A stretch of DNA of 64,000 bases from the NCBI RefSeq assembly GCF_002854065.1, contig NZ_CP024147.1; one strand, 5' to 3'. The position numbers are program-made. This document shows, piece by piece, positions 9,001 through 18,297 of this stretch (positions within the stretch are counted from its first letter, which is position 1; each line of letters begins with the position of its first letter). The stretch is from Escherichia coli (GTDB taxonomy: Bacteria > Pseudomonadota > Gammaproteobacteria > Enterobacterales > Enterobacteriaceae).

Positions 9001-12000
9001 TGTCTGGATGACCTCACCTGATGGCAAATATCGCATCGTTGTTGGTCAGGAATGGGAATACCGTGAAGACATGGCGCTGGCGATTGTTGTCGGGCAATTG
9101 ATCCCGTGGCTGGTCGCACTGCCGATTATGTTAATCATCATGATGGTACTACTGGGTCGTGAACTCGCGCCGCTGAACAAACTGGCGCTGGCACTACGTA
9201 TGCGTGACCCTGACTCGGAAAAACCACTAGACGCGACTGGCGTACCCAGCGAAGTGCGTCCACTGGTTGAGTCGTTGAATCAACTGTTCGCCCGCACACA
9301 TGCGATGATGGTTCGTGAACGACGCTTTACCTCTGACGCAGCTCACGAACTTCGTAGCCCGTTAACGGCGCTGAAAGTGCAAACCGAAGTTGCGCAGCTC
9401 TCTGACGATGATCCGCAGGCGCGGAAAAAAGCACTGCTCCAATTACATTCTGGGATCGATCGCGCTACTCGTCTGGTTGATCAACTGCTCACGCTATCGC
9501 GGCTGGACTCACTGGATAACCTTCAGGACGTCGCGGAGATCCCGCTTGAAGATCTCCTGCAATCGTCGGTGATGGATATTTACCACACGGCGCAGCAGGC
9601 GAAAATTGACGTGCGACTGACACTCAATGCCCACAGCATCAAACGCACCGGGCAACCGCTATTGCTAAGTTTGTTGGTGCGAAATTTGCTGGATAACGCC
9701 GTGCGTTACAGTCCACAGGGCAGCGTGCTGGACGTCACGCTGAATGCCGATAATTTCATCGTGAGGGATAACGGCCCCGGTGTGACACCAGAGGCACTGG
9801 CGCGAATTGGCGAACGCTTCTATCGCCCACCCGGACAAACCGCTACCGGCAGTGGACTTGGGCTATCGATTGTCCAGCGAATCGCCAAGCTGCATGGCAT
9901 GAATGTTGAGTTTGGGAATGCGGAACAAGGTGGATTTGAGGCGAAAGTAAGCTGGTAAGGGTAAGACTTTTGCTAAATTCGCAAAAGACTTTGCACATTT
10001 TGCTAATTTCACCGTACCGCTCTGTGACGTACTATAGTCGGCAAACGTCTCACCTTGAGGTTAAAAAATGAGCAACATCCTGATTATCAACGGCGCGAAA
10101 AAATTCGCCCACTCCAATGGTCAACTGAACGACACCCTGACCGAAGTCGCGGATGGCACACTGCGCGACCTCGGGCATGATGTCCGCATCGTTCGCGCTG
10201 ACAGCGACTACGATGTCAAAGCGGAAGTACAAAACTTTCTCTGGGCTGATGTGGTGATCTGGCAGATGCCAGGCTGGTGGATGGGCGCGCCGTGGACAGT
10301 GAAAAAATATATTGATGATGTATTCACCGAAGGTCATGGGACGCTGTATGCCAGCGATGGCCGTACCCGCAAAGATCCGTCAAAAAAATACGGTTCCGGC
10401 GGCCTGGTACAGGGCAAAAAATATATGCTTTCTCTGACCTGGAACGCACCAATGGAAGCCTTCACCGAAAAAGATCAGTTCTTCCACGGCGTTGGCGTTG
10501 ACGGTGTGTATCTGCCGTTCCATAAAGCAAACCAATTCCTTGGCATGGAACCGCTGCCGACATTTATCGCTAATGACGTGATAAAAATGCCCGATGTTCC
10601 CCGCTATACTGAAGAATATCGCAAGCATCTTGTGGAAATTTTTGGTTAACTAGAGCTCAGGCTTTAGAAGGAGTTAACCATGCTTACCGTAATCGCAGAA
10701 ATCCGTACTCGTCCTGGTCAACATCACCGTCAGGCGGTATTGGATCAGTTTGCTAAAATCGTTCCAACCGTACTGAAAGAAGAAGGTTGCCACGGCTATG
10801 CGCCAATGGTGGATTGCGCTGCTGGCGTGAGTTTCCAGTCTATGGCACCGGATTCTATCGTGATGATTGAGCAGTGGGAAAGCATCGCGCATCTTGAAGC
10901 GCATCTGCAAACCCCGCACATGAAGGCGTACAGCGAAGCCGTAAAAGGCGACGTGCTGGAGATGAATATCCGTATTCTGCAACCGGGGATTTAACATTCC
11001 TGAAAAGAGGCCGGTGTTGCTACCGGCCTCAGGTCAGATTAGCCATTCTTTCTTCCCGTTTTCAGCCCCCGATGGAAATCGTTAATTCGCTTAATGGTTT
11101 TAACCGCACGCTGCGGCACCGCGGAAGCCACCGACCAGACAATCATTTCCAGGCACAACAATACCGTACCATGTAGTGGCGTTTTCCCCTTTTCATCCCC
11201 GCGCGGAACATGAATCACGATACTGGCGTCTTTGCTAAAACGTGAATCCAGCGCGTTTGTCAGCAAAATAACAGGGATCCCCAGCCGTCTCGCTTCACGC
11301 AGCGTTGTCAGCCCTTCCCGGTGCGCAGATTTTTGCGCCATCATGATCAGAACATCGCCACGTTGAAGCGCGATCAGTTGCTCGGCAAGGCCAATACCCG
11401 TACGGTTTAGTGCCGTGGCAGGCAAACCTATGCGGTTGAATAGTCGTGCGGTATAGTCCGCCAGAATACCCGAAGCGCCAATGCCAAAAATTGCGACTTG
11501 CCGTGCCTGTACCAACAACGCTACAGCTTGCGCAAGCGCGTGGCGGTTTTCAGGCTCTGACAGGACATTACAGGTATACAAATGCCCTTCAAGAACAAAG
11601 TCGATTGCGGTGTTAACATCGCTCGTCAAGTTACTCACCGTCGTAGACATCTTTTCGCTGGAACTAAGGGCTGGACCAAGCCACTGTTCCAGAGTGCGTT
11701 TCAGATCACGCAGCCCGGCAAACCCCAGAGCCTGTATAGCCCTGATAACTGTGGCATCGGAAGTGTTCAACGTGGCCGCAATTTCCATCGCCGTTTGCTC
11801 GAGTACCACTTCACGATGCTCATTAATATAGCTGGCGACAGCTCTTAACCCAGGCGTTAACTGACTCGCGCGAGTGCGAAAACGCTCACCATAAATATCA
11901 ACCCGCGTTTTGTCTTTCTGAATCATTTGGCCTCCGGTAAAGGTCGCCCCGCAATTTGTGATTGTATCTGCGCAGCCATCAGCCCCAGAGATGCAAAGGA

Positions 12001-15000
12001 GTTAGAAATTGCCTCTTCACGAGAAATCAGCACATAACGCCCGGAACGACAGGCCGTCAGAAACTGACACCATCCCGGCATGACTTTTTCCATTGCTGCC
12101 AGCTCATCCTGAGGTTTACCACCGTTGTCACCGCGCCAGGTTGCAAAAACAAAATCGGCATCCAGTTCAGGTAAACGCTCTGCGCTCACATCCATTCGCC
12201 CACCTTCAGGAATGCTCTCAATCAGCGGCGGAAAGCGAAAACCAGCATCGCGTAATACCCGCCCCAGCGAATGATAGCTATGCATCACATTAATTTTTCC
12301 CTGATTTGCCTGAATCACCGATACCGTTATTTTTTGGCTGTCCAGCGTCGCCTTCAGCGCATTGATTTGTGCCTGATAGCGGCGTTCAAGTATCGCCAGC
12401 TGCGACTGCGTTCCTGTCAGTTCTGCCAGCTTGCGGTAGATTTCTGGCGCGCCTCCTTTGAGATGATCAATGCTCACCGTGGGCGCAATTTTTTCCAGTT
12501 GTTCAATGGGCGTATTACGGGTCGGTTCTGTGATGATCAGGTCAGGCTTTGCCGCCACAATCGCTTCAATATCAATATCAGCGGTGCCAATAAAAGCGAT
12601 CAATGAATTATCAAAGTCGACACCTGTCAATAACGCGCCTGATCGAATGAAATGGCTACCGTCAGGCCGAGTTCGCCCGTGGCTGGCGACAGGAGGTACA
12701 CCGAGCTCAATCAGAGGAATAGTGATATCAAGATCGTGTAAAGAGACAATTCTCTTTGGATGAGCAGGAACAGTGGCTTTGCGCCCTAAATCATCAGTAA
12801 AGACCTGAACAGGTTCTGTCGCGCGGGCAAAGAATGACAACAGTATCAGCAGAGAAAAAAATAAACGCATATAACTCCCATTAAAAACTGTTCCTGCGCT
12901 GCCAGAGCAGTAGCAAAAAGAATGGTCCACCAATCAATGAAATAATGATTCCGGCAGGCAGTTGCAAAGGCAAAAAAGCCAAACGACCAATGCTATCCGC
13001 CAGGATGACTAACAACGCCCCCGATACGGCGCTCCCCAGCAGTAATGTCGTCTGCCCGCCACGTAGAATAAAACGTGATATATGGGGTGCTATCAATCCG
13101 ACAAAACCGATGTTACCAACACACGAAACGCAGACGGCTGTCAGGATTATTGGTGCGGCGACACGTAACAACGCCAGACGAGAACTATTCACCCCTAACC
13201 CGGTTGCAACCTGATGACCAAGCAGAGCGATATCCGCCGTCCTGGCGGTGAACAGCAATAAAAGAGCGGCTGGCAACATCCAACAGGCTGAAATACCGAC
13301 TAACATCCAGTTTGCTGCATGCAGGCTTCCCGATAACCACATCAATGCAGTTTGTACATCTCGAACATCTGCAGTGGTCATAAATACACCGATACCGGCG
13401 GCGAAAAACCAGGAAACACCAATACCAATCAGAACAAATCGCGGGCGGGAAATTTCGCGTGCACAAAAAATCACGATTAAAGCCACCAACAAGCCACCAG
13501 CAAGACCAGCCACTGGACGCCAGAACATTCCCAGCATTGGAAACTGGAAAATCAGCCACAGCACCGCCACGCTACATCCTTCTTTGACGCCGATTAAACC
13601 AGGATCGGCAAGGCCGTTACGCGCAATGGATTGCATCGAGGCCCCCGCCATACCTAACATGGCTCCGCATAGCAATGCCATGATGACTCTCGGCAAGCGA
13701 ATATCCTGCACAATATAACGTGCGTCTGTGCTTACGTTTTCTGGAGCAAACAACGCTCGTCCTACTTCCGATGCCGGGACAGAAAAAGAACCATGCATCA
13801 GACCGAATATCAGTATTCCAACCGCAAACAGAAACAGCCCACCAAGCAACACCAGATTTTTAGGGCGTACCAGTGTCGAAAACTTACCAACACGTAGTGG
13901 ACGTAGCCCGACGTTCATTATCCGAATCATTTGAACATCCTCGTCGCCATAATGACAAAAACAGGCGCACCAACTAACGCCGTCATGACACCGGTCGCTA
14001 ACTCATGGGGCGTGAAAAGCGTCCGAGCAATAATATCTGCCAGTAATAACAAAAGCGCGCCGACACAAGCTGAAAGAGGGAGCAGAACGCGCAGATCCGC
14101 TGATACCAGACGCCTGACAATCTGCGGTACTAGCAGACCGACAAAACCAATGGGGCCAGCAATCGATACGGCTGCGCCACAGAGCAACGCGATCGCAAGC
14201 AGAGTGAATGTTCGCGTGCGGAGTACCGAGACGCCCAGCCCCTGCGCCATGCGATCACCCAGTGCCAACATGTTAAGAGAGGGCGCAAGGTAAATGGCTA
14301 ACACAACCCCCCCCAGAGAAAACCAGGCGGACGTACCCAGCGTAGCCCAATCCTGCCCCGCTAAATCACCTGCTAGCCATGTCCGCATCGCCAGCAGTGT
14401 TTGTTCGTCAAGAATCAGGATTGCAGCCGTTATTGAGGACACGAACGCCGATAGCGCCACGCCGCATAAAGTAACTTTCATTGGCGTTAACCCTGAACGC
14501 CCTGCGGAGGAAAGCAGCAATATCAACAGGAACAATAACGCGCCGCCCGTAGATGCCAGCAGTGGGCGTCCAACCGGAAAGGCCAGCCCAAGCGCACTGG
14601 CAGCAACGACAGCAAGAGCGGCTCCGGCATTTAAGCCTAAAATATGTGGCTCCCCCAATGGGTTACGAATGACAGCCTGCAACAAAGCACCAGCAACTCC
14701 AAGAGAAGCACCGGTAAGCAATGCTGCCGCTAAACGCGGCAAACGGAGTCTTACAATTACGTTGTGATCGAAGTTTTGCGGTTCAAAATGAAGAAATGCC
14801 TGCAACACCGTTTGTGGTGCAATAAATCGGGCACCAATCCCTGGATATACCACGCATCCCACAAGCAGTAAGGCGAGGAAAATTACAGTAACCAGCCCTG
14901 TGCGCATCATACTTTTTCTACACCACGAAACGGCATGAAGAACGGCTTTCCCGTCAGAGTATTTATTGATGCGTGAACATCAACGTCAAAGACAGCTTTT

Positions 15001-18000: not shown

Positions 18001-18297
18001 GTAAGCCGTCGTTCGGCAACCAATGGGGCTGACTATTATCTGCCAGGCTATTTCGTTGCCGATGCCTTCGCCGCATACAAAATGAAATTGCAGTATCCGG
18101 TCACACTGCAATTAAACGTCAAAAACCTGTTTGATAAAACGTATTACACCTCATCCATCGCCACAAATAATCTGGGGAATCAGATTGGCGATCCGCGTGA
18201 AGTGCAATTCACGGTGAAAATGGAATTTTGATCAAAAAAGCCCGGTATACACTTGTATACCGGGCTATGTTTTATTCTTCTGGCGGGAGGATTATCA

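What the first reader, a model, noticed from the sequence alone, without database searches (positions are those of the whole stretch)
10995..18294. Accessory iron/siderophore uptake cluster inserted between ygiN and parE
Six genes (RpiR-type regulator, periplasmic binding protein, two FecCD permeases, ABC ATPase, and a divergent TonB-dependent receptor) are bracketed by bidirectional terminators. In K-12, as I recall, ygiN and parE are adjacent. The architecture and location match what I recall of the fit locus described in pathogenic E. coli, but the substrate is unknown from sequence. An RpiR/SIS regulator rather than a Fur-only or AraC-type one is unusual for a siderophore locus and hints at a sugar-phosphate-like effector.
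Basis: partly seen in the sequence, partly recalled or inferred. Interest (0 to 1): 0.55.

Follow-up and report, generated by a model that had tools for sequence, protein, structure and literature searches.

The report
The known E. coli fit iron-uptake locus
This is the already published fit iron-transport gene cluster of E. coli (outer-membrane receptor, ABC importer and its own repressor FitR); it is real and correctly read, but ordinary, and it looks like an old enterobacterial locus that K-12 lost rather than a recent insertion.

Summary
The six genes are at the stated coordinates, between ygiN and parE. They are the published E. coli fit locus (Ouyang & Isaacson 2006, 2008). The paper's primers for fitA, B, C, D, E, R and the fit promoter map onto the matching genes. 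FitE is the protein solved as PDB 3BE5/3BE6.

Gene names: fitA is the receptor, fitB the ATPase, fitC and fitD the permeases, fitE the binding protein, and fitR the RpiR/SIS repressor. Published work shows Fur and FitR repress the locus independently. Papers from 2018 and 2022 still call the substrate unknown.

K-12 has only 47 bp at this site. The cluster is in 1,870 of 5,426 complete E. coli genomes. "Inserted" is probably the wrong direction. The same six genes sit between ygiN and parE in Enterobacter and Lelliottia, diverged and adjusted to host GC, with no integrase, tRNA or flanking repeats.

New minor points from comparing 42 loci:
- Two invariant inverted 12-mers overlap the predicted -35 elements and are candidate FitR operators.
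- Conserved Fur-like boxes lie at both promoters.
- The fitA 5' leader has two covarying hairpins and matches no Rfam family.

Verdict: already known, low interest.

The parts
11039..11926 (-). fitR: RpiR/MurR-family repressor with an N-terminal HTH_6 domain and a C-terminal SIS domain
   Evidence: Pfam finds HTH_6 (residues 15-81) and SIS (138-247). The published fitR qPCR and cloning primers map here with 0 mismatches. The nearest solved structures are MurR/RpiR regulators.
11923..12870 (-). fitE: periplasmic siderophore-binding protein with a signal peptide (MRLFFSLLILLSFFARA)
   Evidence: PDB 3BE5/3BE6 covers residues 19-315 at E = 2.6e-193, and PMC10553834 names that entry Ec-FitE. The fitE primers map here with 1 mismatch each. 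The start codon follows RefSeq; the longest ORF starts at 12933.
12881..13930 (-). fitD: FecCD-family permease (RefSeq starts it at 13918)
   Evidence: NCBIfam finds FhuB C-terminal-half and FecD-like matches, all below the equivalog cutoffs. The fitD primers map with 0 mismatches.
13927..14910 (-). fitC: FecCD-family permease
   Evidence: NCBIfam's best match is FecC at 238 bits, against a cutoff of 396. The fitC primers map with 2 mismatches each.
14907..15716 (-). fitB: ABC ATPase (GTG start)
   Evidence: NCBIfam's best match is FecE at 281 bits, against a cutoff of 375. The fitB primers map with 0 mismatches.
15717..16089 (.). Divergent fitB-fitA control region (30% GC). The published 'fit promoter' amplicon corresponds to 15710-16068.
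   Evidence: The promoter primers map at 15710-15733 (0 mismatches) and 16047-16068 (2 mismatches). FitR EMSA binding and both-direction lacZ fusions used this fragment (PMC2593036). Conserved blocks are shown in the 17-species alignment.
15788..15799 (+). Invariant 12-mer TGTAGTAGTCAA. On the minus strand it contains TTGACT, the predicted -35 of the fitBCDER promoter. It is a candidate FitR operator.
   Evidence: It is invariant across the 17 aligned species. All 42 fit-bearing loci have exactly two inverted copies, and the 3 fit-less loci have none. The chance expectation in the window is 0.17. The functional assignment is inferred.
15950..15961 (-). Second copy of the 12-mer (plus strand TTTACTACTACA). 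It holds the predicted fitA -35 (TTTACT), followed 17 nt later by an extended -10 (TGgTTGAAT, 15970-15978). It is a candidate FitR operator.
   Evidence: The spacing between the two copies falls into only two classes, 161-163 bp and 183-185 bp, which differ by about two helical turns. The function is inferred.
15745..15763 (+). Fur-box-like site next to the predicted fitB promoter (13 of 19 matches to GATAATGATAATCATTATC)
   Evidence: Consensus scoring. The core AAATAA..CTCATTCTC is conserved across three families. [quoted passage not shown]
15973..15991 (+). Fur-box-like site overlapping the predicted fitA -10 and +1 (12 of 19 matches)
   Evidence: TTGAATGATTCTCAATTACA is nearly invariant in 17 species.
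15986..16089 (+). Structured fitA 5' leader. P1 pairs 15993-15998 with 16015-16020. P2 pairs 16051-16057 with 16064-16070 and is followed by UUUUU and the SD GGGA. The single-stranded motif GUGAGCAA lies at 16028-16035.
   Evidence: RNAalifold on a plain MAFFT alignment recovers P1 with compensatory changes. A covariance model built from Enterobacter sequences finds one hit per fit locus, including E. coli, which was not in the seed. On that alignment 91.9% of cells are paired and 16 of 17 pairs show double changes. There is no Rfam match. The function is not established.
16090..18231 (+). fitA: TonB-dependent siderophore receptor, with signal peptide, TonB box ETITVTA, plug and 22-strand barrel family domains, and no N-terminal signalling extension
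   Evidence: TIGR01783 scores 370.7 against a cutoff of 223.5, and no equivalog cutoff is reached. The best PDB relatives are FetA, FoxA and FhuA, at E = 1e-44 to 1e-49. The fitA primers map with 0 mismatches.
11007..11030 (.). Hairpin between the ygiN and fitR stop codons, probably the fitR terminator
   Evidence: -24.3 and -23.6 kcal/mol on the two strands, z = -5.0 and -4.4. It has a U4 tail only on the fitR strand and was not called by the terminator scan.
18239..18266 (.). Bidirectional terminator hairpin between fitA and parE
   Evidence: The stem has 12 perfect pairs and is called on both strands. Energies are -27.7 and -22.9 kcal/mol.

Best explanation
The region is the E. coli fit locus, fitA / fitBCDER. 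FitA is a TonB-energised outer-membrane receptor that takes up an unidentified ferric chelate. FitE binds the chelate in the periplasm and passes it to the FitC/FitD permease pair, which is powered by the FitB ATPase (a BtuCD/FecCDE-type importer). Two divergent promoters in the 373-bp intergenic region are repressed independently by Fur-Fe2+ and by the operon's own last gene product, FitR. Shown experimentally by others: iron, Fur and FitR repression; FitR binding to the promoter fragment; and the FitE crystal structure. Shown here: the identity of the locus, the domain content, and the conservation of the whole six-gene unit across Enterobacteriaceae, Erwiniaceae and Pectobacteriaceae. The cluster occupies the same ygiN-parE site in Enterobacter and Lelliottia. 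Inferred: FitR acts at two invariant inverted 12-mers (TGTAGTAGTMAA) that overlap the -35 and spacer of each promoter, and may bridge the two sites. Inferred: Fur acts at the conserved boxes over the -10/+1 region. Inferred: the K-12 state (47 bp) arose by loss. Inferred: the substrate is most likely a hydroxamate-type xenosiderophore, because the nearest characterised relatives of FitA (FhuA, FoxA) and FitE (YfiY, FhuD) handle hydroxamates. Inferred: a small-molecule inducer releases FitR through its SIS domain.
For: All published fit primers map to the expected genes, 14 of them exactly (primers from PMC2593036). The gene order, the orientation and the roughly 350-bp promoter fragment match the paper. 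FitE matches PDB 3BE5/3BE6, which PMC10553834 names Ec-FitE. K-12 lacks the cluster. A 2026 comparative paper lists a 7,193-bp 'fit operon' region among the regions it reports as found in all its strains except MG1655. CFT073 c3771-c3775 is in the direct Fur regulon. The six-gene cluster is present in all 39 loci recovered from the species-representative genome scan (39 species-level genomes). It sits in the order qseC-mdaB-ygiN | fit | parE-yqiA-cpdA in Lelliottia and several Enterobacter. Nucleotide identity between E. coli and Enterobacter is 64-79% for the fit genes, against 80-87% for flanking core genes. GC3 has shifted to each host's level, 0.46-0.53 against 0.68-0.77. The 12-mers, Fur-like boxes and promoter elements are conserved.
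Against: No substrate has been identified. FitA reaches no NCBIfam equivalog cutoff (FhuA 230 of 803, FoxA 163 of 1300, FhuE 162 of 666), so the hydroxamate guess rests on weak nearest-neighbour similarity. No Fur box with 3 or fewer mismatches exists in the window; the best sites match 13 and 12 of 19 positions in AT-rich DNA. The promoter, operator and transcription-start assignments are purely comparative. Citrobacter, Kosakonia, Kluyvera and Erwinia carry the cluster at other sites. Within E. coli the site also holds a third, unrelated island in 405 genomes. Exchange at a hot spot therefore cannot be excluded. The original 2006 paper could not be read.
Confidence: 0.93

Rival explanations
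1. The cluster is a horizontally acquired virulence islet that was inserted between ygiN and parE in pathogenic E. coli lineages.
For: It is absent from K-12, W and B and present in only 1,870 of 5,426 genomes. The literature associates fitA with B2/AIEC/ExPEC strains. The site is multi-allelic: an unrelated 8.3-kb island occupies it in 405 genomes, and one strain has an IS1 plus a truncated MFS gene there. The whole intergenic sequence differs between the two states, including the parE stop codon, TGA against TAA.
Against: The six called genes fill the interval between ygiN and parE, and none is an integrase, a tRNA or a transposase. No direct repeats were noted at the ends. GC content is about 0.50, like the flanks. 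The same six genes lie at the same ygiN-parE site in Lelliottia and Enterobacter. Their divergence and GC3 adjustment fit long residence in each host. The fit-positive E. coli haplotype also matches these other genera in lacking ygiZ between qseC and mdaB.
Confidence: 0.12
2. Fit imports a non-classical ligand. This could be a sugar- or phosphate-bearing iron chelate, or another metal complex, sensed inside the cell as a phosphosugar-like molecule by the SIS domain of FitR. On this view it is not an ordinary hydroxamate or catecholate siderophore system.
For: The regulator is an RpiR/SIS protein, a family whose known effectors are phosphosugars (established knowledge). Papers from 2018 and 2022 report that no substrate has been found. 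FitA matches no receptor of known specificity. In Erwinia, Pantoea and Affinibrenneria the operon carries a PepSY_TM protein plus two PstS-like phosphate-binding-fold proteins between fitE and fitR. One paper cites the 2006 study for Fe2+, Co2+ and Cd2+ uptake.
Against: All five transport proteins fall squarely within the siderophore/FecCD families. FitE is closest to hydroxamate binders. Fur control and iron-limitation induction are typical of siderophore systems. The extra genes occur in only 3 of the 39 scanned loci. No ligand data exist for FitR.
Confidence: 0.15

Closest known systems
E. coli fit system (fitABCDE-fitR; strain i484; CFT073 c3771-c3775; FitE structure PDB 3BE5/3BE6)
   Same: The gene content, order and orientation are the same. 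The published primers map to the matching genes. FitE matches PDB 3BE5/3BE6 at E = 2.6e-193 over residues 19-315. Across E. coli genomes that carry the cluster, DNA identity to this window is 97-100%. It lies between ygiN and parE and is absent from MG1655.
   Different: Nothing material differs. A few primer sites carry 1-4 strain-level mismatches.
Fhu ferric-hydroxamate system (FhuA, FhuCDB) of E. coli K-12
   Same: Both combine a TonB-dependent receptor, a periplasmic binding protein and a type II ABC importer, and both are Fur-repressed. FhuA is among the best characterised relatives of FitA. Hydroxamate-binding proteins are the closest ligand-defined relatives of FitE.
   Different: FitA scores 230 bits against the FhuA cutoff of 803. 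Fit has two separate permeases instead of the fused FhuB. It has a dedicated repressor, FitR. Its substrate is unknown.
Fec ferric-citrate system (FecA, FecBCDE, FecIR)
   Same: FitB and FitC have FecE and FecC as their best NCBIfam matches. Both systems are iron transporters with their own regulator, a point made in PMC2593036.
   Different: All Fec scores are below cutoff. FitA aligns from about residue 30 with the cores of signalling-type receptors, so it lacks an N-terminal signalling domain. Fit has no FecI/FecR and uses a cytoplasmic RpiR-type repressor instead.
RpiR/MurR/HexR/AlsR family regulators
   Same: FitR has HTH_6 plus SIS domains and acts as a repressor that binds its own promoter region (PMC2593036).
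   Different: FitR is below every equivalog cutoff. It controls an iron importer rather than a sugar pathway. Its effector is unknown.
RyhB-activated receptor mRNAs (cirA, iroN, iutA)
   Same: These are Fur-regulated TonB-dependent receptor genes with regulatory 5' leaders. The fitA leader is structured and carries an 8-nt stretch complementary to the RyhB core CAUUGCUCAC.
   Different: No experimental link exists. Duplex energies are no better than for shuffled leaders. The CFT073 study names IroN, IutA and IucD as RyhB targets and does not name c3775.

Membership tests
E. coli fit locus (Ouyang & Isaacson) | Six genes, fitR-fitE-fitD-fitC-fitB, divergent from fitA, with the roles receptor (A), ATPase (B), permeases (C, D), binding protein (E) and HTH+SIS regulator (R) | tested here: met
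   ORFs and families; roles as stated in PMC2593036.
E. coli fit locus (Ouyang & Isaacson) | Sequence identity with the published locus | tested here: met
   All 16 fit primers map to the expected gene and strand. Ten have 0 mismatches and the rest have 1-4. The promoter amplicon spans 359 bp here, against the published 347 bp.
E. coli fit locus (Ouyang & Isaacson) | FitE protein as crystallised (PDB 3BE5/3BE6) | tested here: met
   E = 2.6e-193 over residues 19-315; named Ec-FitE in PMC10553834.
E. coli fit locus (Ouyang & Isaacson) | Repression by Fur-Fe2+ and, independently, by FitR | not testable with these tools
   This comes from the literature only. Conserved Fur-like boxes and candidate FitR operators are consistent with it.
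TonB-dependent siderophore receptor (TIGR01783) | Whole-protein score above the curated cutoff, with plug and barrel domains | tested here: met
   370.7 bits against 223.5. Orthologues carry PF07715 and PF00593. The TonB-box-like ETITVTA follows the signal peptide (translation).
Receptors of known specificity (FhuA, FoxA, FhuE, Fiu, FecA, FepA, CirA, IreA, FauA) | Score at or above the NCBIfam equivalog cutoff | tested here: not met
   FhuA 230 of 803; FoxA 163 of 1300; FhuE 162 of 666; Fiu 150 of 686; FecA 102 of 1100; the others are lower.
Signalling-type (FecA-like) transducer receptors | N-terminal signalling extension and adjacent sigma/anti-sigma genes | tested here: not met
   FitA residues 28-34 align with positions 77-131 of the signalling receptors. 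No FecI/FecR-like ORFs are in the cluster.
FecCD/BtuCD-type (type II) ABC importer | Two FecCD permeases, one ABC ATPase and a Peripla_BP_2 binding protein | tested here: met
   Pfam families of the 78-86% identical Enterobacter orthologues.
RpiR/MurR transcription factors | N-terminal HTH_6 and C-terminal SIS domain | tested here: met
   HTH_6 at 9.8e-10 and SIS at 1.3e-13. No equivalog cutoff is reached.
Horizontally inserted genomic island | Integrase or transposase, tRNA or att site, flanking direct repeats, deviant composition | tested here: not met
   None of the six called genes is an integrase or transposase, and none of the rest was seen. GC is 0.46-0.56, like the flanks. Synteny is shared with Enterobacter and Lelliottia.
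Rfam RNA families (for the fitA leader) | A match at or near a family's gathering score | tested here: not met
   Only two chance-level miRNA matches, at E = 0.28 and 0.94.

The most novel reading that the evidence does not exclude
Beyond Fur and FitR, fitA may be controlled by an undescribed, conserved cis-regulatory leader RNA. The leader has two covarying hairpins. The second hairpin is terminator-like and sits directly before the ribosome-binding site. Between them is a conserved single-stranded motif complementary to RyhB. FitR may bridge two phased operators and respond through its SIS domain to a phosphosugar-like inducer. That would imply that the long-unknown Fit substrate is a non-classical, sugar- or phosphate-bearing iron chelate.
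Probability: 0.12. Interest if true: 0.55.

Novelty: already known. Interest (0 to 1): 0.15.

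Why it matters
As a finding it adds nothing new. The locus was described in 2006, its regulator in 2008 and the FitE structure in 2009, and comparative papers list it routinely. Two questions remain open: what iron source Fit imports, and what ligand FitR senses. fitA is used as an ExPEC/AIEC marker and is iron-induced in E. coli and Klebsiella, so these answers would matter for host iron piracy and for siderophore-drug uptake. The comparative results here make those questions easier to test. 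They give defined candidate FitR operators, Fur sites and promoter elements, a conserved leader RNA, and accessory genes in Erwiniaceae (a PepSY_TM protein plus PstS-like proteins). They also correct the evolutionary picture: this is an old enterobacterial locus lost in the K-12 lineage, not a pathogen-specific insertion.

Tried and rejected
- The original 2006 fit paper (PMC1698097) is not held, so its substrate experiments could not be read.
- A broad literature search on 'FitR', 'fit operon' and 'fit system' returned only noise.
- The Fur consensus with 3 or fewer mismatches gave no hit in the window. Only sites matching 12-13 of 19 positions exist.
- An Rfam scan of 10900-18400 found nothing real.
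- RNAalifold on the plain MAFFT alignment recovered only the outer P1 stem. P2 needed a covariance-model alignment, which is biased towards the model structure.
- Single-sequence folding of the leaders gave only mild z-scores, from +0.1 to -2.6.
- RyhB-leader duplex energies were no better than for dinucleotide shuffles, p = 0.03-0.8. RyhB pairing therefore stays a suggestion based on one conserved 8-mer.
- By eye, I looked for a conserved antiterminator that would pair the P1 3' arm with P2. It is plausible in E. coli and Silvania but not in most Enterobacter, so I dropped it.
- I considered a leader peptide starting at the ATG inside GGGCAATGA. The reading frame and length are not conserved and E. 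coli lacks the ATG, so I rejected it.
- I tested whether the K-12 47-bp spacer is a clean deletion scar. Only the 3' half of its hairpin resembles the fitA-parE terminator (ACCGGGC.ATGTT), and the left side shows no similarity. The result is inconclusive.

Full report
**What is in the window.** Between the stop codon of ygiN (10994) and the stop codon of parE (18295) lie six ORFs. On the minus strand these are:

| Gene product | Coordinates |
|---|---|
| HTH_6 + SIS regulator | 11039-11926 |
| Siderophore-type periplasmic binding protein | 11923-12870 |
| FecCD permease | 12881-13930 |
| FecCD permease | 13927-14910 |
| ABC ATPase | 14907-15716 |

A 373-bp AT-rich spacer (30% GC) separates these from a 713-aa TonB-dependent receptor on the plus strand (16090-18231). 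The family assignments come from NCBIfam, Pfam and PDB sequence searches. RefSeq annotates an identical genome the same way.

In K-12 MG1655, ygiN and parE are neighbours separated by 47 bp. The right flank carries a perfect 12-bp bidirectional terminator hairpin at 18239-18266. The left flank carries a strong hairpin at 11007-11030, with a short U-tail only on the fitR side.

**Identity.** This is the fit locus of Ouyang and Isaacson. Their 2008 paper (PMC2593036) lists primers for fitA, B, C, D, E, R and for the fit promoter. All of them map in the window to the expected gene and strand, most without mismatch.

This fixes the nomenclature:
- fitA is the receptor.
- fitB is the ATPase.
- fitC and fitD are the permeases.
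- fitE is the binding protein.
- fitR is the regulator.

FitE matches PDB 3BE5/3BE6 over residues 19-315 at E = 2.6e-193, and another paper labels that entry Ec-FitE. A 2026 comparative genome paper lists a 7,193-bp 'fit operon' region among those it reports as found in all its strains except MG1655. A Fur ChIP/RNA-seq study places CFT073 c3771-c3775, 'the Fit pathway', in the direct Fur regulon.

**What is already known about how it works (from the literature, not tested here).**
- fit expression rises under iron limitation.
- Purified FitR shifts the intergenic fragment specifically.
- FitR therefore acts as an autorepressor independent of Fur.
- The authors stated that the exact Fur and FitR sites were not known.
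- Papers from 2018 and 2022 still call the substrate unknown, and state that it is not enterobactin.

**What the proteins say about the substrate.** FitA passes only the generic siderophore-receptor model (TIGR01783, 370.7 against 223.5). It is far below every equivalog cutoff:

| Equivalog model | FitA score / cutoff (bits) |
|---|---|
| FhuA | 230 / 803 |
| FoxA | 163 / 1300 |
| FhuE | 162 / 666 |
| Fiu | 150 / 686 |
| FecA | 102 / 1100 |

The best solved relatives of FitA are FetA, FoxA and FhuA, and it lacks a signalling extension. After itself, FitE's closest ligand-defined relatives are the hydroxamate binders YfiY and FhuD. A hydroxamate-type xenosiderophore is therefore the best guess, but a weak one.

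**Insertion or loss.** The cluster is present in 1,870 of 5,426 complete E. coli genomes. It has no integrase, tRNA, transposase or flanking direct repeats, and its GC content is like that of its surroundings.

A scan of one genome per species recovered 39 loci, and all carry the complete six-gene unit. The genera are Escherichia, Enterobacter, Lelliottia, Silvania, Huaxiibacter, Citrobacter, Kosakonia, Kluyvera, Yokenella, Erwinia, Pantoea and Affinibrenneria.
- In Lelliottia and several Enterobacter the order is qseC-mdaB-ygiN | fitR...fitA | parE-yqiA-cpdA, exactly as in this window.
- In Citrobacter, Kosakonia, Kluyvera and the Erwiniaceae the cluster sits elsewhere.
- Between E. coli and Enterobacter the fit genes are 64-79% identical at the DNA level, against 80-87% for parE, yqiA and cpdA.
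- GC3 has drifted to each host's level, 0.46-0.53 against 0.68-0.77. This argues against recent transfer.
- Fit-positive E. coli also resemble these other genera in lacking ygiZ between qseC and mdaB, whereas K-12 has ygiZ.

I conclude that the ygiN-fit-parE arrangement is old and that K-12-type strains lost it. Two points weaken this conclusion. An unrelated 8.3-kb island occupies the same site in 405 E. coli genomes, and one strain has an IS1 there. The K-12 spacer also gives no clean deletion scar.

**Control region (new, comparative, inferred).** I aligned the fitB-fitA spacer from 17 species in three families. Four blocks stay invariant while the rest diverges.

Two of the blocks are the 12-mer TGTAGTAGTMAA in inverted orientation, at 15788-15799 and 15950-15961.
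- Every one of the 42 fit-bearing loci has exactly two copies, and the 3 fit-less loci have none.
- The window has no other copy.
- The spacing between copies falls into only two classes, 161-163 bp and 183-185 bp, which differ by about two helical turns.
- Each 12-mer contains a -35-like hexamer: TTGACT for fitB on the minus strand and TTTACT for fitA.
- Seventeen nucleotides downstream lie a -10-like element (CAAACT for fitB; an extended -10, TGgTTGAAT, for fitA) and a conserved Fur-like box (15745-15763, 13 of 19 matches; 15973-15991, 12 of 19 matches).

The simplest reading is two mirror-image Fur-controlled promoters. Their conserved -35/spacer sequence, ACTACTACA, would be the FitR operator, with phasing that allows one FitR oligomer to bridge both sites. 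None of this has been tested experimentally.

**fitA leader (noticed in passing, partly followed up).** Downstream of the predicted fitA start site, the roughly 105-nt leader folds into two hairpins.
- P1 pairs 15993-15998 with 16015-16020, and most genera add an apical helix.
- P2 pairs 16051-16057 with 16064-16070. It is followed by UUUUU and the Shine-Dalgarno GGGA.

A structure-blind MAFFT/RNAalifold run recovers P1 with compensatory changes, for example AU:20 and GC:15 at one pair. A covariance model seeded only with Enterobacter sequences finds exactly one hit per fit locus, always upstream of fitA. These hits include E. coli, Citrobacter, Kosakonia, Yokenella, Erwinia and Pantoea.

On that alignment:
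- 91.9% of cells are paired.
- 16 of 17 pairs show double changes.
- 79 doubly changed cells are observed, against 21.5 +/- 4.9 in shuffles.
- The slid-partner controls collapse, with a covariation score of at most 0.086 against 0.387.

The alignment is fitted to the model, which inflates these numbers. U-G wobbles occur only on the sense strand, which fits an RNA structure. Rfam has no matching family.

Between the hairpins lies a conserved single-stranded motif, G(G/A)GCAAUGA, which in E. coli reads GUGAGCAA. It is complementary to 8 nt of the RyhB core CAUUGCUCAC. I verified the RyhB sequence. Duplex energies are not better than for shuffled leaders, so this remains only a lead. I found no conserved antiterminator and no conserved leader peptide.

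**Accessory genes elsewhere.** In Erwinia sp. JUb26, Pantoea coffeiphila and Affinibrenneria salicis the operon carries three extra genes between fitE and fitR. They encode a PepSY_TM membrane protein and two PstS-like PBP_like_2 proteins without obvious signal peptides. From established knowledge, the PepSY_TM family includes the siderophore reductases FoxB and FpvG. The membrane protein hints at reductive iron release, and the phosphate-binding-fold proteins are unexplained. They appear in only 3 of the 39 scanned loci.

**Verdict.** The finding is real and was correctly identified, but it is already known. Its only open aspects, the substrate and the FitR effector, cannot be settled from sequence. 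The word 'inserted' should be replaced by 'present here and lost in K-12-type strains', with moderate confidence. Interest is low. The candidate operators and the structured leader are modest additions, not a new kind of system.

Noticed in passing
window 15986-16089: The fitA 5' leader forms two hairpins that covary across three enterobacterial families. The second hairpin is followed by a U-tract and sits directly before the Shine-Dalgarno sequence, so it looks like a terminator. It has no Rfam match. A covariance model finds it only upstream of fitA, once per locus.
   Followed up: partly
window 16028-16035 (and the G(G/A)GCAAUGA motif in other genera): The conserved single-stranded motif in the fitA leader is complementary to 8 nt of the RyhB core (CAUUGCUCAC). 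E. coli and Enterobacter pair in registers shifted by 2 nt. Duplex energies are not better than for shuffled sequences, so this is only suggestive.
   Followed up: partly
window 15788-15799 and 15950-15961: The 12-mer TGTAGTAGTMAA occurs as an invariant inverted pair in all 42 fit loci examined and nowhere else in them. The spacing is either 161-163 bp or 183-185 bp, a difference of about two helical turns. The pair is a candidate for phased FitR operators that overlap both -35 elements.
   Followed up: partly
window 9959-10067: ygiZ (DUF2645), which lies between qseC and mdaB in K-12, is absent here; the gap is about 110 bp. The fit-positive E. coli loci and the Enterobacter/Lelliottia loci also lack it. 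The three fit-less E. coli loci examined have it. The qseC-parE region therefore seems to exist as two haplotypes.
   Followed up: partly
L045 9439-17683 (E. coli DETEC-E601), same ygiN-parE site: A third allele occupies the same site. It is an unrelated 8.3-kb island encoding an MFS transporter, a GntR regulator, an ADP-ribosylglycohydrolase, a SIS-domain protein, a carbohydrate kinase, a phytase-like esterase, a porin and a DUF2608 protein. It is present in 405 of 5,426 complete E. coli genomes.
   Followed up: partly
L003 1939-3728 (E. coli MB06173): At the same site this strain has a truncated MFS transporter gene next to an IS1A element. This is probably a remnant of the alternative island after an IS1-mediated deletion.
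   Followed up: no
L033 2600-5666; L035 2392-5512; L043 about 2593-5675: In Erwinia sp. JUb26, Affinibrenneria salicis and Pantoea coffeiphila the fit operon holds three extra genes between fitE and fitR. They encode a PepSY_TM membrane protein (the family that includes siderophore reductases) and two PstS-like PBP_like_2 proteins that lack obvious signal peptides.
   Followed up: partly
L009 and L011 12128-18980; L036 12140-15750; L027 9794-11190: Some Enterobacter genomes carry 1.4-7 kb of additional DNA between fitA and parE. Others (L004, L005) carry a glycoside-hydrolase/LacY-type MFS/AraC block upstream of fitR, with no ygiN found in the 5 kb of upstream flank that was searched. The borders of the fit cluster are therefore variable in other genera too.
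   Followed up: no
window 9124-9142 and 27270-27297: The best matches in the window to the 19-bp Fur consensus are not at fit. They lie inside qseC (15 of 19) and in a cluster of overlapping 13-14 of 19 matches around 27270-27297 (GATAACAATGATGATGATCATC). I did not examine them.
   Followed up: no
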